This document shows positions 12,051-56,182 of a stretch of 64,000 nucleotides of DNA, one piece after another. Source of the stretch: Octopus vulgaris. Its lineage: Eukaryota. The position numbers and the translations under genes were made by a program. Numbering within the stretch: the stretch's first letter is position 1; each line of letters opens with the position of its first letter. The notes below the pieces were generated by a model that was not told where the DNA came from, ran no database searches, and saw only the letters and a list, made by a program, of their open reading frames with translations. The stretch covers positions 88,350,001 to 88,414,000 of the forward strand of contig OX597817.1 in NCBI GenBank assembly GCA_951406725.2, in the 5' to 3' direction.

Positions 12051-12146
12051 TATTAATACCAATATATACATATGTATGTACATATGTATATGTATTCATG
12101 TATGTGTGTGTATACATGTGTGTGTGTGTGTGTGTATGTGTATATA

Positions 12147-13696
12147 CAGTAGCGGCCATAATTTAAGGGTCAGAAAGAACAAGTGTATTGAAATAGTTAC
12201 TATAGAAGATTAACAACACGTTGAGACTAGATATTTTCCACATATTTAGATATATCTAATATCTATCTTTCGTGAAAATTTCAAGTGAATGGAATAAATA
12301 TTTCGTAAGTTATGAGGAAATAAGCAAACAATCTTCCAAATTGCAGTGACCAAAAGTTAAGTGTCACTTAGAAAAAAATGAACTACTGTTGTTTAGTAGA
12401 CTGTTAATGGGCTAACAGTTATTTCTTATGATCTTACATTATTGGGACATTCAACTGTCAACATGGCGGCTTGTGAGAGACGACCGGTGGCCTGTGATGA
12501 AGAGCAAAGTATTGTGTGCCTTAAACAAGAGGGAAAGTCAAATTTTGTGATAGCAACTACTGTAGGAAGATCAAGAGGTGTTGTGCAACAAATTGTTTTA
12601 AGTCATCAGGATCGACAGATACTAAACCCAAAACTGGTAGACCTCAGTAGGATCGTATTATGATTAGAATATCATTGAAGAATAGGTTTAAGAGTGTTGC
12701 TGAGATATCCCACAAGTTTAGCTCCACTTCCAATGTCAACATATCATGCAAAACAGGTTCTCAGAGGTTGTTCTAGGTTACTTGCTTGGGCACTAGCAAA
12801 GAAACCTCTAATCGTCAAGAAGAATCAAAGAGCCCGTCTTCATTTTGCTCACAAACATGTCATTTGGACAGGACAGTAGTCGCAGGTTCATTTTAGCAAT
12901 GAATCGAAGTTTAATGCAATTGGATCCAATGGTGAGATGTATGTTCAACGATGAAATGGCGAAAGGTTATCTCGTGTATGTGTGAAGAAGACAGTGAAAT
13001 ATGGGGAGTGATTTCTGCTGCTGGTCCTGGTCCCCTTATTTGACTACAAAGGACTGCCAATGCTGAAATCTACAAGCAGATTCTTAGACAGCATGCCCTT
13101 CCTCATCTCCGATCCTTGTCAGTTCACCCTCCTATCTTCATGCAAGACAACACTCCCTGTCACACTGTGAAGAGAGTCAAAGATTTTTTTGAATGAAGGG
13201 GTTGATCTCATGGGCTAGCCACCACAAAGTTCTGACCTCAACCTTATAGAAAACATTTGGAAGATTATTGGAGATGGGACACAAAGGAGTATTCCAAAGA
13301 ACCATGATGAACTCTGGAAATTATTGGAAAACAAATGGAACAATATTACTCCATCATTTTGCAAGAAATTAATTCAGTCCTGTAGTAACAGATGTCAAGA
13401 GGTCACTGACAGTAGAGGGATGTTCACAAAATATTAATAGCAATGGTTTCTTTTTGTTCTTGTCCCATCTTTTATTGTTTTCCTAAGTGACCCTTAACTT
13501 TTGGCCACTGCAGTTTGGAAGATTATCTGCTTATTTCCTCAAAACTTACGAAATATTTATTCCATTCAGTTGAAAGATAGATATTAAATATATCTAAATA
13601 TGTGTAAAATATCTAGTCTCAAGGTTTTGTTAATCGTCTATAATAACTATTTCAATACACTTGTTCTTACTAACCCTTAAATTATGGCCGCTACTG
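12147..13696 (+). mobile_element. Full-length Tc1 (DD34E, IR-DR type) transposon with inactivated transposase
   Basis: TA|cagtagcggccataatttaaggg ... cccttaaattatggccgctactg|TA. TIRs are about 230 bp with an inner direct repeat (cagtgaccaaaagttaag). Broken ORF from about 12463: KKPLIVKKNQRARLHFA, VHFSNESKFN, FMQDNTPCHT, PPQSSDLNLIENIW. Confidence 0.93.
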
Positions 13697-13904
13697 TATA
13701 TACACATACGTACCACACATATATATACACACACATACATGAATACATATACATATATTCCCTTGGATATCACTGCTAGTCTTCCATAAACAACCTTGCC
13801 TGGACTTGTGCTTGGGAGGGTAACTTTCTAGGTACAATCTCATGGTCTGTGTCATGACCAAAGAGGGTCTCAGAATATATACATATAGATATATGTATAT
13901 ATAT

Positions 13905-13936
<32 letters not shown>

Positions 13937-14017
13937 CATCATCATCATTTAACGTCCGCTTTCCATGCTAGCATGGGTTGGACTATATATATATATATAT
14001 AAATATATATATATATA

Positions 14018-14773
14018 AGAAAGTTGGTTAGTGAAAGCACGTCGTTGAATATATAGAAAATAGTAAAAAGTGAATGTATGTGTGTGTATATGTATGTGTG
14101 GTACGTATGTGTATATACAGTAGCGGCCATAAGTGAGGGACAGAAATTCAAGATCAAATCTAACTTTACCTGTGCCTCTGAAAACATAATTTATGTCATA
14201 AAATGCTCGGGCTGCCACCAAGACTACGTGGGTTCCACGGGACTATCACTTAGACGTAGATGCACACTGCATCGACAACAGATTGCATTCCCAGAATACA
14301 GAATGATACCTTTTAGTGAGCACATTGAGAAATGCGCAAAGCAACTACTACCACAATTTTTAATCTTTCCATTTTACCAATGTGCTATCGGATCATCAAC
14401 ACAAATTAGACTAAACAAGGAAACATTCTTCATTGAAAAGTACAAGCCCAGACTTAACCATGCCAACATACTGATACAGAGTAATTCACACCAAGGGAAA
14501 AGAAAAAAATTTTAAGCGATTATCTCCCTTACACCGGAAGAAATCACTCATTACCTCCCCTTATTTAGAACTCTTTTAAACATAAACATAACTCTATTCA
14601 ACATAAACATAACGTCGTAAGAAATTTGAAAAGCTAAACGCGAAACCGGTCTTTCTTCTAAACTATGTCATTGTAAGGAAAAAATTTTTTTTAATATTCT
14701 TCAGACATATTGACGCAAATATATATATTTTTTAAACTTTAAGCCTTCTGTAATTTTTTCACTTTTTACTATT

Positions 14774-14782
<9 letters not shown>
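14018..14782 (+). mobile_element. 5'-truncated Penelope-like element with intact GIY-YIG endonuclease domain (CxxC inside the motif, Neptune-like) and inverted 5' tail
   Basis: FKIKSNFTCASENIIYVIKCSGCHQDYVGSTGLSLRRRCTLH..SEHIEKC..RLNKETFFIEKYKPRLN (14133-14515). 14050-14074 is the reverse complement of the 3' end 14758-14782. Inserted in (TA)n. Confidence 0.9.
14619..14657 (+). ncRNA. Minimal hammerhead ribozyme motif with U3-A8 core variant
   Basis: AAGAAA-U-UUGAAAA-GC-UAAAC-GC-GAAAC-CG-GUC-UUUCUU. Stem I AAGAAA/UUUCUU, palindromic stem III ACCGGU, GUC triplet. Located in the PLE 3' UTR. Confidence 0.7.
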
Positions 14783-14812
<30 letters not shown>

Positions 14813-14892
14813 CACATATATATACACATACACATATATCATCATCATCATATATACACACATATATATATATATACGTATACATACATATA

Positions 14893-15070
14893 TCATCATC
14901 ATTGTCTAACGTCCGCTTTCCATGCTAGCATGGGTTGGACGGTTTTGACTGAGGGCTGGCAAACCAGATGGCTGTACCAGGCTTCAATCTTGATTTGGCA
15001 GAGTTTCTACAGCTGGATGACCTTCCTAACGCCAACCACTCCGAGAGTGTAGTGGGTGCTTTTTACGTGC
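14893..15070 (-). mobile_element. RTE 3' end fragment with (CAT)n tail
   Basis: catcatcattgtctaacgtccgctttccatgctagcatgggttggacgg, the same terminus as 17215 and 50917. Confidence 0.75.
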
Positions 15071-17214: not shown

Positions 17215-18517
17215 ATCATCATCATCATCATCATCATCATTTAACGTCCGCTTTCCATGCTAGCATGGGTTGGACGGTTCAACTGGGGTCTGGGGAGCCC
17301 GAAAGCTGCACCAGTCCAGTCAGATCTGGCAGTGTTTCTACAGCTGGATGCCCTTCCTAACGCCAACCACTCCGAGAGTGTAGTGGGTGATTTTATGTGC
17401 CACCGACACAGGTGCCAGACGAGGCTGGCAAACGGCCACGCTCGGATGGTGTTTTTTATGTGCCACCGACACAGGTGCCAGACGAGGCTGGCAGACGGCC
17501 ACGCTCGGATGGTGTTTTTATGTGCCACCGACACAGGTGCCAGATGAGGCTGGCAAAACGGCCACGATCGGATGGTGCTTGTTACGTGCCCACAGCACGG
17601 AGGCCAGTCGATGCGGTACTGGCTACGGCCACGTTCGGATGGTTTTCTTGTGTGCCACGTGCCACCGGCACTGGTACCACCAGGATACAAATTCCATTGA
17701 TGTTCATCTATTTTGATTTGTTTTGATTTTTTTTTTTTTTTTGATTTTCACTTGCCTCAACAGGTCTTCACAAGTGTCACAAGAAGGAAGGTATGCACAG
17801 GTGGACTGACTACGTCCCAGGTAGGGGCCATGGGTTATGGCCTGACTAGTCTTGCCGGGTCTTCGGATGGTGTTTTTATGTGCCACCGACACAGGTGCTA
17901 GATGAGGCTGGCGAACGGCCACGATCGGATGGTGTTTGTCATGTGCCCACCGCACTGACTACAGCACTGATGGATTTCTTGTGTGCCACAGGCACTGGTA
18001 CCACAAGATACAAATTCCATTGATGTTCATCTATTTTGTCTATTTTGATTTGATTTGATTTGATTTTCACTTGCCTCAACCGGTCTTCACAAGTGTCACA
18101 AGAAGGAAGGTATGCACAGGTGGACTGACTAGTCTTGCCGGGTCTTCGGAAGGTGTTTTTATGTGCCACCGACACAGGTGCCAGATGAGGCTGGCGAACG
18201 GCCATGATCGGATGGTGTTTGTTACGTGCCCACAGCACGGAGGCCGGTCGATGCGGAACTGGCTACGGCCACATTCGGATGGTTCTCTTGTGTGCCACCG
18301 GCACTGGTACCACAAAGTGTGTGCCACCGGCACTGGTACCACAAAGATACAGATTCCATTGATGTTCATCTATTTTGATTTGTTTTGATTTTGATTTTCA
18401 CTTGCCTCAACAGGTCTTCACAAGTGTCACAAGAAGGAAGGTATGCACAGGTGGACTGACTACGTCCCAGGTAGGGGCCATGGGTTATGGCCTGACTAGT
18501 CTTTCCGGGTCTTCGGA
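17215..18517 (-). mobile_element. RTE LINE 3' UTR, internally triplicated, with 62-bp minisatellite units and (CAT)n tail
   Basis: Reverse complement of 49870-50917. Three tandem blocks each end at gggtcttcgga. Confidence 0.85.
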
Positions 18518-18619: not shown

Positions 18620-19587
18620 TATCATTATCATTGTTCGACCGTGGTCGAGACAATGGAATTTACTATGTTACGCCAGACTTCACGGTCCATCATGGCATTA
18701 CGGAGGTCCTGTGGCTGGATGCCTGTATCCCTGGAGATTACATCAGGGTAGGAGAGTGTGCGCCCTCTGGTATTGCGAGTAGATGGCTTCCAGAGGAGAA
18801 GAGTAGAAATTACCTCTTTTTCAGCTCTACAACAATGTCCAGCAAACTGGACTCTCCTACCTTTCACAAGAGATGACACAGGTGGTAGTTTCCCATATAT
18901 TTGCATTTTGGTTGGATGGCGCTTCCACGAGAGATTTTGAGCTCTCATAAGGAGGCAAGTGTAGGTTCCATCCAACCGCCTCTCAAGCTTCTTTGATAAC
19001 GTCCAGGTTTCTGAGCCATATAGTAGAATTGGTTCGACTGTGGCTTTGAATATTTCAAGTTTGAAGTCTCTACTTAGATTTGATGACCAGATCTTATGCA
19101 TGTCATTACAGGCTGACCAGGCCATACCCTTTCTAGTTAGAAAGTCTTTTCCAGATGATGATATGTATGACCCAAGATATTTATAATCAGAAACCATATT
19201 TAAAGGCGCACTGTTGAGAGTATGGATGATGCAATCACTGTTGGACAGGCACTTGTTTATGAATTCAGTTTTGGCCTCATTGAGGTAAAGACCTACACAA
19301 TTTGAGGCTTGTTCAAGAGATTGTAAAAGAGACTGGGCATTGGAGAGAGAATCACTGATAAGAGCGATGTCGTCAGCAAAGTCAGTGTCTGTCAAGTACT
19401 CAGCTGGGTGTCTGGAACTTCTTGGTTTTATTTCAAAGCCCTTGCCAGAGATGGTATCAACTGACATACGTAGCACATACAACAACAATGATGAAAAGAA
19501 ATGGGGCGAGTGTGTCTCCCTGCAGTATTCCGGCTTTGATTGAGAAAGATGATGTTTCTCCATCAGGGGTTAAGATGGTTGAAGACG
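18620..19587 (-). mobile_element. 5'-truncated RTE-clade LINE (RT C-terminal half), young, one frameshift
   Basis: TPDGETSSFSIKAGILQGDTLAPFLFIIVV, then a frameshift near 19480, then YVLR..DFADDIAL..YKYLGS..PILLYGSETWT..FAGHCCR. Short ATG/ATA-repeat tail. Inserted in (TA)n. Confidence 0.92.
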
Positions 19588-19906: not shown

Positions 19907-19957
19907 TATATGTATATATATATACATAAATAAAGTTTAGTTAATTTTTTCAGTAGA

Positions 19958-21139
19958 ATGGGCTTAAAAATCGTTTTTGATGACGATCTGACGAAGGCCA
20001 ACTTTTTAGATATCACGCTTAATTTACACAGTGACTCTTACTTCCCATATCATAAACCGTTGACCAATCTTAAGTACATTAGCAAATTTAGTAATCATCC
20101 TGGAGCAATTACTAAGAATTTAGTTAAGAATATTTCATTTAGATTATCTAAATTATCTGCTAATGTTGATATTTTCAATAATAATGCTGAATTCTATAAC
20201 TCTGCCTTAATCAAAGCAGGTTATACAGAAAAAATTTTCTACATTGATTCTGCTCAGTCTAATTGTAAATTCAATAATGTAGATAAGATTTCTAGTCGTA
20301 AAAGAATTATTGATAACAAACATAACTTACGCACCGATACAAAGCGAATGAAGGCAGATAACCCTTATTTATTCCCCTATTACCGATCTAAAAGTAAATA
20401 TAACACCTTCAAAAGTAATTACGCTATGAATACTAGTAAAAATATTTGGTTAATAATTCCTTACAGGAGACAAATTAAATCTAATCTCCCACTGCTGTTT
20501 CGTCAAGCTATTGCTAGGAATTTTCCAAATAATTCTAGATATTACTCTATAATTAATTCACATAAGGTTAGGATAGGTTTTTCAAACACAAAAAATCTCT
20601 TGCAAATTATATCTTCTCATAATAACAAACTGTTAAATATTAATACATTTACTAATACTAACATTAATTTAGCTACTACCATCCAACCCTCTAGAAATAT
20701 TAATAACAAGGTTATTGTATCTGAAGTCAATCCCAATAGAATTAAATTTATGTCAAGTAACTCTAAGATTAAAAATTCTATATACCAGTGTATAATCAGT
20801 ACTCGTAATAAAGTACGATTTTACATTGGAAGCACATCGTTAGAGTTATCTAAGAGAATTTCTATCCATTACTCAACATTTAGGGATAGAAATAAACGGA
20901 ATAGTACCGGTCTCAGCAAACTGATTTGGAATTTAAAAGACCACAATGAACAATTTCATTTGGAATGGTTGATCCTCTCAATTTCGATACCATATGACAA
21001 AGGCAAGAAATTCTGTCTTCTCTGCAATTCTGAGCTATTTTTCATTATTTTTTCTAAAAATACTCTAGTAAACACGGTTATAGAACGAGCATACAGATGT
21101 AAGCATTGGCAAAAACATACTTTTAGTGCATATAAATAG
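19958..21139 (+). CDS. Penelope-like element ORF, 5'-truncated: RT C-terminus/thumb, linker and GIY-YIG endonuclease (element about 19925-21625)
   Basis: ANFLDITL..YFPYHKP..YISKFSNHP (PLE RT motifs); SIYQCII..FYIGST..KRISIH..STGLSKLIWNLK..FCLLCNSE..LVN..CKH (GIY-YIG with C-terminal CxxC..CxH). Open for 393 aa and flanked by (TA)n. Confidence 0.92.
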   Translation: MGLKIVFDDDLTKANFLDITLNLHSDSYFPYHKPLTNLKYISKFSNHPGAITKNLVKNISFRLSKLSANVDIFNNNAEFYNSALIKAGYTEKIFYIDSAQSNCKFNNVDKISSRKRIIDNKHNLRTDTKRMKADNPYLFPYYRSKSKYNTFKSNYAMNTSKNIWLIIPYRRQIKSNLPLLFRQAIARNFPNNSRYYSIINSHKVRIGFSNTKNLLQIISSHNNKLLNINTFTNTNINLATTIQPSRNINNKVIVSEVNPNRIKFMSSNSKIKNSIYQCIISTRNKVRFYIGSTSLELSKRISIHYSTFRDRNKRNSTGLSKLIWNLKDHNEQFHLEWLILSISIPYDKGKKFCLLCNSELFFIIFSKNTLVNTVIERAYRCKHWQKHTFSAYK

Positions 21140-53287: not shown

Positions 53288-55170
53288 TTTCTACAGATTG
53301 AGCAGGGCCATCTACCTGAAGGGATTTGTAGTTTGTCTGCCTTCCTATTTATTAAGACTTTGGTTTTAGCTGGGTTGACTCTAAGGCCCTTTGATTCTAA
53401 TCCTTGCTTCCACATCTGAAACTTTTCCTTTAGTTCTGATAGTGACTCAGCAATTAGAGCAAGGTCATCAGCATAGAGGAGCTCCCAGGGGCATCCTGTC
53501 TTAGGTTCCTCTGTTATTACTTGGAGGATCATGATGAATAAGAGGGGGATGAGGACTGATTGTTGGTGGACCCCTATCCCTACTCAAAATTCTTCACTGT
53601 ACTCATCACCAACCTTCACGTTACTGACAGCATCCCTGTGCATGGCTTGCACAGCTCTCACTAACCATTCATCTATCCCTAGTTTCCTCATTGACCACCA
53701 GATAAGGGATCGGGGGACCCTGTCAAAGGCTTTCTCCATGTCAACAAAAAGCCAGATACAGAGGTTTATCTTTGGCTATGTATTTTTCTTGCAGCTGCCT
53801 TACCAGAAATATAGCATCAGTGGTGTTTTTTCCCTGGCACAAACCCCAACTGCATCTCATCTAAACTAACTATTTCCCTAATTAGTTGGGCTATGACCAT
53901 CTCCATGACCTTCATTACCTGATCCAACAACTTGATACCTCTGTAATTATTTGTATCTAAAGTGTCACCTTTACCTTTGTAGCAGTTGACTATGGTGCTG
54001 CTACACCAGTCATTGGGTATGATTCCTTCATGTATCACCTGGTAAACTATACAGGTGACTAGGCTATAGCTGACACCGCCAGATATTTTGAGCATCTCGG
54101 TGGTGATTCCTGATAGGCCAGGAGTTTTCCCTGTCATCATATCTTTAATTGCTTTATCTACCAAGGTACTGTCAATTCGGATAGCTGGTTCCTCTGTTGG
54201 GTCGACATTCGGCAGACTTTCTTTCTCCCATTCAGTCTCCTTATTGAGCAACCTTTCATAGTGGTGTCTCCAAACCTCTCTCTTTGCAGCCTCATTTAAT
54301 GCAAGTGAACCATCATCTATGCGGAGACATTTCTCTCCTACATCACAATTCTCTCTCACACACTGTCTTGCAACACAAAATACCTCAAGTCTTTGGTCCT
54401 CACAGCAGAGCACATTGGCAAATTTTTTCTTATCTGCTTCCCCTCTGGCTAAATAAACCTGTATCCTAGCTTCCCTTCTGGCAGTCTGATGCAATTCCTT
54501 GCTACCACCATTCTTCCAGTCCTTCCAAGCCTGTTTCTTTTCTCTAATAGCCCTGTCTACAACATTGTTCCACCACCACGTTACCTTGGGTCGAGAGGGG
54601 ACTTTGCACCTCAGCAGGTTGTCCCATAGAAACCTCTAGTTGTCTTCTACATCATGTGATGCTATATCCCCTTCTATTTCGTCAAAGGCTTCGAGTAATA
54701 CATCTCTAAATCTCTGTCCATTCGCTGGATCTTTAAGCTTCCAGACCTTTCTCCTCCATGCTGGTTGTCTTCTGGGCATCCCTTTAGCCCTGATCCTGAA
54801 GTCGCTAACTACTAGTTGTGTTGTGGGGTACATTCTTTGCCTGGGAAGGTTTTGGCATTTATAAGCAGCCATCTTTCCCTTTTTCTGGTGAGGATGTAGT
54901 CAATTTGGCTAGTGTGTCTGCCAGAATGGTAGGTGACTAGGTGACTGGCAGGTTTCCTGAAGTTAGCATTGAAAACCATAAGATCATTTGCATTGCAGGA
55001 TTCCAGTAGCCTAGTTCCCCCCTCATTGCAGGAACCAAAACCATAGCCTCCATGTACGCCATGGAAGCCCCCTGCATGTTGTCCAACACGTCCATTGAAG
55101 TCACCAGCCACAAAGAGAAGGTCCCTGTCATTTGTCAACGAGGTAGTCTGCAAGAGAGTGTCATAAAGTC
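53288..55170 (-). mobile_element. RTE LINE internal fragment (APE endonuclease to RT), frameshifted
   Basis: LFVAGDFNGRVG..SQIDYIL; YKGKGD..NNYRGIKLL; MQLGFVPG; DMEKAFDRVP; PWELLYADDLAL..GLRVNPAKTKVL. Confidence 0.92.
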
Positions 55171-55171
55171 G

Positions 55172-56182
55172 AACGAAAATAAGGGATTTGCAGCATATTA
55201 GGAAGTTAGCGTTCTTGATTTCACGCAAAAAAAAAATCAGATTTTTATTTTTTTTCTGTAGTGAAAATCATATGGGTGAAACGATCAATGGGGGTGGGGG
55301 TAAAATTTCTGAGGCTTCAACCTCACCCAACCCCGTTTTTCGGACCCCCCAAAATGGTTTTGTTGCACATTAGGAGGTCACAAGAATTCATTCAACAAAA
55401 AGAAAAAAATTTCCAAAGATTCCAGGAGGGGGGGGGGGTCCCCCCTTGCCCTACCCCTAACCAAAATAAGGGATTTGCAGCATATTAGGGGGTCAGGGTA
55501 CTTGATTCCATGCAAAAAATCCAAGTTTTTTCTTTTTTCTTAGTGAAAATCGTGCAGGTGTTAATCTAAAAATTTACTCTTTGTTTTTCTTTCTCACCAT
55601 TGCTAGACAGGTGACTTAACTCATATTAGCAAACTTACAGATTTCACCAATGTGGAAATTGGTAAAAGTTATGGTTGAAAATCGATTTTTATCACTATCC
55701 ACATGTACTTCAGGGAAAATAAGTTGACAAAAACACAGCCATGATCGTGACCAATGTCCTAAAATTGAAGCAACATTTGTGAACGTGCATAAATTACATT
55801 TACGCACGCACACACACACACACATACAGCCTACCTTTTACAGATAAATAGATAAATAAGTGATTTGAAATAAATGTATTTTAATTTTTGTGTGAGAAAG
55901 TATATATAATCTGATTATAAAATATAGTGTCTTCCAAAAACATCCTAAATTTGAAGACTGCATCTCATGTTTAAGAAAAAAAACATTTTACATTTATGGT
56001 TGAAAATCGATTTTTCCGCTATCCGCAGGTGCCTCAGGAAAGATAAGTTGACAAAACCTAGCTAGGGTTGTGACGAATGTCCTCCTAAAATTGGAGCGAC
56101 ATGTGTGCTAATTTGTAAACGTGCATAAATTATATTCACGTACACACACCCACACACATCCTGCCTTTTATATATACAGATA
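55172..56182 (+). mobile_element. Helentron/HINE-like remnants with tandemly duplicated modules
   Basis: Duplicated blocks 55177-55280 / 55464-55560 and 55669-55850 / 55994-56182, the latter ending in ccttttatatatacagat. Confidence 0.45.

What the first reader, a model, noticed from the sequence alone, without database searches (positions are those of the whole stretch)
14018..14132. Penelope insertion carries an inverted 59-bp copy of nearby host DNA (Tc1 end plus flank)
Seen: the order is inverted PLE tail (14018-14074, with 14050-14074 the reverse complement of 14758-14782), then 14074-14132 (reverse complement of 13682-13740, 58/59 identical, including the Tc1 terminus cagtagcggccataa), then the GIY-YIG coding region fused in frame. 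Established: PLE insertions often have an inverted 5' pLTR with an extra tail. Inference: template switching during integration copied local chromosomal DNA from about 350-400 bp away. This also dates the PLE as younger than the Tc1 and creates an extra partial Tc1 end.
Basis: partly seen in the sequence, partly recalled or inferred. Interest (0 to 1): 0.7.

Follow-up and report, generated by a model that had tools for sequence, protein, structure and literature searches.

The report
Host DNA patch in Penelope junction
A young Penelope-like retrotransposon copy has a 59-base inverted copy of neighbouring chromosome DNA at its internal junction, likely written by template-hopping end repair during insertion, a kind of scar already described for LINE-1 and R2 elements.

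Summary
14074-14132 is the reverse complement of 13682-13740 (58/59: 44 nt of flank plus the outer 15 nt of a Tc1 inverted repeat). It sits between a short inverted Penelope-like (PLE) 3' end (14018-14074) and a 5'-truncated GIY-YIG body (14135-14782). A 96%-identical family protein has unrelated residues at this place, so the patch is not family sequence. Best reading: the element primed two cDNAs on opposite strands of a (TA)n target. While the two cDNA ends were being joined head to head, one end hopped to chromosome DNA 277-335 bp away, copied it and returned. The steps and the enzyme are inferred. Independent divergence data support the PLE being younger than the Tc1. The in-frame fusion is unremarkable (150 of 660 random local patches do it), and the 15-bp Tc1 end is likely inert. 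Templated junction inserts are known for L1 and R2, and host capture is known for PLEs. Reads and family DNA could not be checked. Interest 0.3.

The parts
12147..13696 (+). Decayed Tc1-type DNA transposon, TA on both sides, TIRs of about 230 bp
   Evidence: TIR alignment 206 matches, 22 mismatches, one 11-nt indel; broken transposase pieces hit HTH_Tnp_Tc3_2 and DDE_3 below the curated cut-offs
13682..13740 (-). Donor of the patch: outer 15 nt of the right Tc1 TIR (13682-13696) plus 44 nt of microsatellite flank (13697-13740)
   Evidence: 58/59 to 14074-14132; flank part 43/44, next best elsewhere 31/44
13984..14017 (.). Left (TA)n target tract
   Evidence: sequence; no target-site duplication can be defined inside (TA)n
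14018..14049 (-). About 32-nt extension ('tail') present only at the inverted end; PLE origin inferred from position and length
   Evidence: no second copy in the window beyond a 14-nt match, E 0.028; 30-40-nt tails at one end are typical (PMC8557442, PMC3846280, passages)
14050..14074 (-). Inverted copy of the PLE 3' end (short second cDNA, inferred)
   Evidence: 25/25 to 14758-14782
14068..14073 (+). Hexamer AAGTGA at the inner end of the inverted arm
14074..14132 (+). Locally templated inverted patch; 1-nt microhomology on the left (14074), 2-nt overlap with the hexamer on the right (14131-14132)
   Evidence: family proteins have a Cys-motif linker here instead
14131..14136 (+). Second AAGTGA spanning the patch/body joint; it accounts for bases 14133-14134 and overlaps the body by 2 nt
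   Evidence: chance P=0.007 overall, 0.057 given the two real ends
14135..14515 (+). 5'-truncated PLE ORF: GIY-YIG endonuclease domain, no stop or frameshift, CCHH and catalytic motifs kept
   Evidence: Pfam GIY-YIG E 0.003, below cut-off; 96% to P0001; 5 of 117 residues differ, and the window reads on past P0001's last residue; motifs
14626..14651 (+). Minimal hammerhead-like motif in the 3' region (core variant T3/A8, 2-bp stem II, palindromic loop 3, 6-bp stem I)
   Evidence: own descriptor, written after seeing the motif: the only hit in the window, also finds L001 1852-1882, 2 of 20000 shuffles; not found by Rfam; fold z-score about +1, not stable
14516..14782 (+). PLE 3' region ending in a T-rich run fused to the right (TA)n tract
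   Evidence: two distant relatives (L001, L002) also show a T-rich run into TATATA after their ORF

Best explanation
The 59-nt segment is an inverted copy of chromosome DNA 277-335 bp upstream of the insertion, likely written while two Penelope cDNA ends were being joined during integration. Shown: the anatomy, the donor, the 1-2-nt microhomologies, the flanking hexamer and the absence of the patch from the family protein. Inferred step 1: the PLE protein nicked both strands of a (TA)n tract and primed reverse transcription from each; the right arm gave about 650 nt lacking the tail, and the left arm gave about 57 nt including it. Inferred step 2: the two 3' ends met head to head through the 2-nt GA overlap, and synthesis aborted after about 4 nt, leaving AAGTGA twice. 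Inferred step 3: the end re-primed with 2 nt on the right Tc1 end, copied about 57 nt toward the target, let go, and joined the short cDNA through 1 nt. I favour polymerase-theta-type end joining as the writer, with the PLE reverse transcriptase a close second. The same junctions also result if the other strand is extended (fold-back of the short cDNA onto resected flank), so polarity is open. The product is a dead 5'-truncated copy with no expected function.
For: Patch 58/59 to a unique local donor. P0001 (96%) and 120 of 121 relatives with an EN hit carry a CX2-5CxxC linker where the patch sits. The patch lies exactly at the inversion joint. Joints have 1, 2 and 2 nt of overlap, as in POLQ repair, where single-base priming and repeated primer-template switching give templated inserts (PMC5068794, passages), and as in 'trans' SD-MMEJ (PMC5728401, passages). 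The flanking hexamer has P=0.007 in a simulation. A purified PLE protein cleaves and extends both strands, and the tail is the stretch between two RT start sites (PMC11167929, parts 1-2 of 4 read). Patch age matches PLE age. L1 and R2 make templated junction inserts.
Against: It is a single locus with no reads, no family DNA and no empty allele. The hexamer is only P=0.057 once both real ends are fixed, and the test was devised after seeing it. Two untemplated bases, or other local copies (13485-13490; 14246-14251 on the minus strand; 7-nt matches), explain 14133-14134 as well. The donor distance is far above the usual one: about 85% of POLQ inserts prime within 10 bp, and L1 templates lie within 15 bp. 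The tail's PLE origin is inferred. The age test of the patch has a wide interval (0.04-9%) and cannot separate 'during' from 'soon after' integration.
Confidence: 0.68

Rival explanations
1. The PLE first integrated with a plain inverted joint (arm joined to body through GA). A later staggered break at that joint was repaired by copying the nearby Tc1 end, duplicating 6 bp like a target-site duplication.
For: Removing 14074-14130 and one hexamer leaves a clean joint with a 2-nt overlap; a flanking direct repeat is the classic mark of a secondary insertion. Ages cannot separate the two events.
Against: An unrelated later break would have to hit within a few bases of the joint in a roughly 765-bp element, about 1% by position (inference). 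No nuclease or fragile structure is evident there.
Confidence: 0.13
The inverted arm is then a self-primed copy, not a second target-primed cDNA.
For: Self-priming was proposed for PLE head-to-head repeats (PMC3846280, passages). R2 cDNAs snap back on themselves or, less often, on nearby rDNA before joining (PMC11371274, passages). A 7-nt source for the filler exists in the body at 14246-14252.
Against: The forward copy lacks the 32-nt tail, so its integrated cDNA cannot have templated the whole arm. A return to the same 6 nt out of about 650 is expected only if a free end lay there. The joint carries no palindrome of the kind that motivated the self-priming model.
Confidence: 0.1
3. Assembly or library artefact: a chimeric read or amplification chimera inverted a nearby stretch.
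For: Short inverted chimeras with small microhomology from nearby DNA occur in amplified libraries (recalled, not tested). PLE inverted structures trouble assemblies (PMC8557442, passage). No reads were available.
Against: It needs two switches 59 nt apart, landing exactly on the biological joint. Patch and donor differ at one base, which a same-molecule copy would not normally do. The window has no gaps (0 N).
Confidence: 0.05
4. The patch is not local: it came with the element, or from another Tc1 copy whose ends include this microsatellite.
For: The two flanks of this Tc1 are themselves inverted copies of each other (33/33 nt), so 'flank' might be part of a larger repeated unit. Other genomic Tc1 copies could not be seen.
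Against: Family proteins have different sequence at this place. The Tc1 ends are the usual TA|CAG. The patch carries bases private to the right flank and absent from the left.
Confidence: 0.04

Closest known systems
Canonical EN+ Penelope-like elements of Neptune/Nematis type with an inverted 5'-truncated copy and a 30-40-nt tail (PMC8557442, passages; PMC3846280, section 6 and passages)
   Same: C-terminal GIY-YIG with CCHH residues, CX2-5CxxC linker in the family, hammerhead-like motif in the 3' region, head-to-head inverted 3' end with a tail at one side only, (TA)n target.
   Different: The inverted arm is very short (about 57 nt against about 180-210 nt in the rotifer examples), and a host-templated patch separates arm and body instead of a direct overlap or palindrome.
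Host-DNA capture by Adineta vaga Penelope families: Pen1 spacers, N-rich inserts (PMC3846280, section 6 and passages)
   Same: A PLE carries non-PLE host sequence, and template jumps were proposed as the cause.
   Different: Those inserts are 0.9-1.5 kb, lie inside the unit or ORF, and no local donor was named in the passages read. Here the patch is 59 nt, inverted, at the inversion joint, with its donor 0.3 kb away.
L1 templated insertions and twin priming with switching (bioRxiv 10.1101/2024.08.27.596794, section 4 read; PMC11702581, passages)
   Same: Two opposite-strand primers, joint resolved by microhomology, genomic template under 250 bp copied into the insertion (22 cases among about 3,600 L1 insertions).
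   Different: A different element and nuclease; no poly(A) or definable TSD; the inverted piece overlaps the element's 3' end and is not an upstream part; the donor is 277-335 bp away against within 15 bp.
R2/PRINT snap-back 5' junctions (PMC11371274, passages)
   Same: The cDNA 3' end primes extra DNA-templated synthesis on cDNA or on nearby genomic DNA before joining.
   Different: Site-specific engineered insertions with a single cDNA; here a natural germline copy with two inferred cDNAs.
Polymerase-theta-mediated end joining / SD-MMEJ templated inserts (PMC5068794, PMC5728401, passages; PMC4912351, listing only)
   Same: 1-2-nt priming, abort-and-reprime cycles, flank-derived inserts that create direct or inverted repeats.
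   Different: Typical inserts are about 10 bp and templated within 10-30 bp of the break; this one is 59 nt from about 300 bp away, and the enzyme is untested.

Membership tests
EN+ Penelope-like element (C-terminal GIY-YIG) | GIY-YIG endonuclease with CCHH motif at the ORF's C-terminus | tested here: met
   Pfam E 0.003, below the curated cut-off; CxxC, two His, R, E and N motifs present; 96% to P0001
EN+ Penelope-like element (C-terminal GIY-YIG) | RT upstream of EN in one ORF | tested here: inconclusive
   Absent from this truncated copy; present in relatives P0003 (73%) and P0004 (59%)
EN+ Penelope-like element (C-terminal GIY-YIG) | Hammerhead motif in the pLTR/3' region | tested here: inconclusive
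   Motif at 14626-14651 by own post hoc descriptor, 2 of 20000 shuffles; Rfam found none; that a U3-A8 core is tolerated is recalled and was not confirmed by a term search of PMC3088659
EN+ Penelope-like element (C-terminal GIY-YIG) | Inverted 5'-truncated copy at the 5' end, with a 30-40-nt tail at one end | tested here: met
   25/25 inverted arm plus about 32 extra nt; that the extra bases are family sequence is inferred
EN+ Penelope-like element (C-terminal GIY-YIG) | RT groups with PLE clades in a tree | not tested
   No named reference PLE sequences were returned by the searches
Neptune/Nematis type | CX2-5CxxC motif upstream of a C-terminal GIY-YIG | tested here: met
   Met in the family (P0001, and 120 of 121 relatives with an EN hit); lost from this copy by truncation. 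Neptune versus Nematis was not separated
Naiad/Chlamys | N-terminal EN, C-terminal RT, no canonical hammerhead | tested here: not met
   Relatives have RT first and EN last
Tc1/mariner (donor element) | TIRs, TA duplication, HTH and DDE transposase | tested here: met
   (Pfam hits on broken pieces, all below cut-off)
Polymerase-theta templated insertion | Insert copied from flanking DNA, with 1-2-nt microhomology at its ends | tested here: met
Polymerase-theta templated insertion | Template within about 10-30 bp of the break | tested here: not met
   277-335 bp for the main patch; only the 6-nt repeat fits this range
Polymerase-theta templated insertion | Genetic dependence on POLQ | not testable with these tools
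   Needs a cell assay
L1-type twin priming with templated insertion | Two cDNAs primed on opposite target strands and joined by microhomology | tested here: inconclusive
   Anatomy fits; a single-strand snap-back is not excluded
L1-type twin priming with templated insertion | L1 element, poly(A), 12-18-bp TSD, template within 15 bp | tested here: not met
   The element is a PLE in (TA)n; donor 277-335 bp away. It works like this class but is not a member

The most novel reading that the evidence does not exclude
This junction is a fossil of the unsolved step of Penelope integration. The doubled hexamer marks a free 3' end of the short inverted cDNA, showing that head-to-head inverted pLTRs come from two target-primed cDNAs joined by theta-type, template-hopping end repair, not from self-priming. 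If such patches recur across the family's copies, PLE integration routinely copies neighbouring host DNA, and the patches give a genome-wide read-out to test the two models.
Probability: 0.35. Interest if true: 0.55.

Novelty: new member of a known kind. Interest (0 to 1): 0.3.

Why it matters
How PLEs form inverted repeats and finish integration is still open (PMC11167929 calls the late steps unvalidated; PMC8557442 lists the inverted structures as unexplained). A junction whose every base can be assigned to a template constrains those steps and suggests a cheap survey: classify all inversion joints of one family by microhomology, palindrome, filler and donor distance. Alone, this is one dead copy with a scar of a type known from L1 and R2, with no evident function.

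Tried and rejected
Second family copy in the window: none by tblastn or blastn. Family DNA from public collections: the one genome-contig scan gave 2 loci from 21 pattern hits, both distant relatives (42-47%) on short contigs without an inverted 5' joint, so the survey of other junctions was not possible. No eukaryotic genome collection or reads were on hand, and the viral and metagenome contig collections stayed unchecked. Names for relatives: none for P0001-P0005; the few named hits are labelled as symbiont-bin proteins, probably host contamination (inference). Rfam: 27 weak hits, none reaching a gathering score and none a hammerhead. My first hammerhead script read only one parse per site and missed L001; the corrected one is the one cited, and it does not pick the by-eye motif in L002. 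Tail stem-loop: none, z -0.33, so the AC-rich stem-loop reported for the anole element is not seen in the 57 nt folded. Functional chimeric ORF (ATG at 14078, 145 aa): rejected as unremarkable, 150 of 660 simulated patches give an in-frame ATG, and there is no expression evidence. Composite transposon from the extra Tc1 end: rejected; it is 15 bp, no partner end was found to the right and the parent transposase is broken. Large target-site duplication made of the two short-repeat ends at 13935-13983 and 14892-14940: rejected; the left one matches 17227-17275 49/49 but its neighbour only 40/49 or similar. Papers that added nothing on the point: PMC13580325, PMC13526784, PMC3088659 (passages only).

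Full report
Setting. The window is AT-rich, microsatellite-laden eukaryotic DNA with no N. It resembles cephalopod DNA, but that is a recalled impression and was not tested. Around the finding lie a decayed Tc1 element (12147-13696), short 3' ends of a common retro-repeat, and a truncated Penelope-like element (PLE).

Observation. 14074-14132 is the reverse complement of 13682-13740 at 58/59, with the mismatch at 14092. The donor comprises the outer 15 nt of the right Tc1 TIR and 44 nt of flank. The best other match in the window is 37/59. Of 697 comparable microsatellite-like 59-mers, none had an inverted match of 50/59 or more within 1 kb; the maximum was 49. In the whole-window self-comparison it is one of only 2 inverted pairs at 93% or more among 188 hits. 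14050-14074 matches 14758-14782 inverted at 25/25. The 32 nt outside it (14018-14049) have no second copy in the window.

The element. 14135-14512 encodes a GIY-YIG domain (Pfam E 0.003, below cut-off) with its CCHH and catalytic motifs. A search among longer proteins returned 4 hits from 44 candidates, one of them 96% identical (P0001). P0003 and P0004 add an upstream RT. In P0001, and in 120 of 121 relatives with an EN hit (123 proteins examined), the residues before the joint are a CX2-5CxxC linker. PMC8557442 (passages) gives that motif for Neptune and Nematis, and also Naiad, endonucleases; the C-terminal EN excludes Naiad. The patch peptide has no counterpart in the 123 proteins (best local score 26). 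A minimal hammerhead-like motif lies at 14626-14651 (post hoc descriptor, 2 of 20000 shuffles, not found by Rfam). Two distant relatives show the same order of ORF, T-rich run and TATATA, each with a hammerhead-like core between (L001 by the descriptor, L002 by eye only).

The joints. Family homology starts at 14135. The donor would continue with TT and the family codon is lysine, so 14133-14134 need another source. The hexamer AAGTGA ends the inverted arm (14068-14073) and recurs across the patch/body joint (14131-14136). The overlaps are 1 nt (arm/patch), 2 nt (patch/hexamer) and 2 nt (hexamer/body). A flanking repeat of 6 nt or more arose in 0.7% of 200,000 simulated junctions, but in 5.7% when both real ends were fixed and only the two filler bases varied. 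The hexamer also occurs at 13485 and, on the other strand, at 14246 and 14759. It is therefore suggestive, not decisive.

Mechanism. A purified Poseidon protein cleaves and extends both target strands, and the PLE tail is the stretch between two RT start sites (PMC11167929, parts 1-2 of 4 read). That predicts what is seen: a forward copy without tail at one (TA)n end, and an inverted copy with tail at the other. I infer two cDNAs whose 3' ends had to be joined. A first 2-nt pairing was extended about 4 nt and lost. The end re-primed on the Tc1 terminus 335 bp from the target, copied toward it, and closed on the short cDNA through 1 nt. Both contacts with the short cDNA fall within its last few bases, as expected if a free end lay there. 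Single-base priming and repeated switching are hallmarks of POLQ repair (PMC5068794, passages) and of trans SD-MMEJ (PMC5728401, passages). Against POLQ, the donor is ten times farther away than usual. The mirror-image route (short cDNA folding back on resected flank, then returning to PLE RNA) gives the same sequence and would implicate the RT. Enzyme and polarity are not determined.

Ages. The Tc1 TIRs differ at 22 of 228 aligned bases. The PLE differs from P0001 by 6 changes over about 280 nonsynonymous sites, 2.1%, counting the lost stop (P=0.0003 against the TIRs). The patch differs from its donor at 1 of 59 (P=0.057 against the TIRs; P=1.0 against the PLE; with the arm 1/85, P=0.007). 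So the PLE and the patch are both young and the Tc1 is older, whatever the mechanism. Caveat: the PLE figure comes from a protein comparison.

Side claims. The frame 14057-14515 is open and has an ATG at 14078 (145 aa), but 150 of 660 simulated local patches give the same. The extra Tc1 end is 15 bp of about 230 with no partner, and the parent transposase is in pieces. Both are likely inert.

Comparison and novelty. Inverted truncated copies with a one-sided tail are the usual PLE anatomy (PMC8557442; PMC3846280 section 6). Host-DNA capture and template jumps were already proposed for rotifer PLEs. Locally templated inserts are described for L1 (22 cases; under 250 bp; within 15 bp; bioRxiv 10.1101/2024.08.27.596794 section 4; also PMC11702581 passages) and for R2 snap-back joints (PMC11371274 passages). 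Searches listed no paper whose title or abstract start reports a locally templated inverted patch at a PLE inversion joint. The library lacks most subscription papers, and I opened no supplementary files (those of PMC11167929 and PMC8557442 may hold such junctions), so this is weak evidence of absence. McIntyre et al. 2025 on R2 repair pathways was seen only as a reference title. PMC4209133 (passages) was used for the minimal hammerhead layout, and PMC13282606 (passages) only shows that young PLE and Tc1 families exist in one octopus genome.

Verdict. It is a new instance of a known class of integration scar. Reads, family DNA and other junctions stayed unchecked. Interest 0.3; 0.55 if a family-wide survey shows such joints to be the rule.

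Noticed in passing
window 12082-12146 and 13697-13756: The flanks outside the Tc1 are inverted copies of each other: 33/33 nt exact (8 G/C) plus 12 nt next to the TIRs, closer than the TIRs themselves. None of 10 other microsatellite tracts (492 centres) gave a comparable palindrome. It suggests an earlier template switch or conversion between the Tc1 ends, or insertion into the centre of a palindrome.
   Followed up: partly
window 14626-14651: Hammerhead-like motif with T and A at core positions 3 and 8 instead of C and G, which would keep that pair (recalled; not confirmed in the paper searched). Activity unknown.
   Followed up: partly
window 13935-13983: Very short (49 nt) 3' end of a retro-repeat with an (ATG)n tail, cut off just after a palindrome and directly beside the PLE's left (TA)n target. 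8 copies of the core occur in the window. Whether the PLE insertion truncated it is unknown.
   Followed up: partly
window 14489-14515: The ORF runs 9 codons past the end of P0001; the codon at P0001's end position reads TCA.
   Followed up: partly
window 18628-19569 (minus) and 54812-55267 (minus): LINE remnants: an RT fragment (RVT_1, E 3e-6) and an endonuclease fragment (Exo_endo_phos_2, E 0.002).
   Followed up: no
window 19934-21139: A 401-codon stop-free frame with no Pfam match in a GC-poor stretch; probably repeat-derived.
   Followed up: no
L001 (FXLX01000113.1) and L002 (JBCCLN010000340.1): PLE ORFs on 2-4-kb contigs filed in bacterial genome bins; likely animal DNA contaminating those bins (inference).
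   Followed up: no
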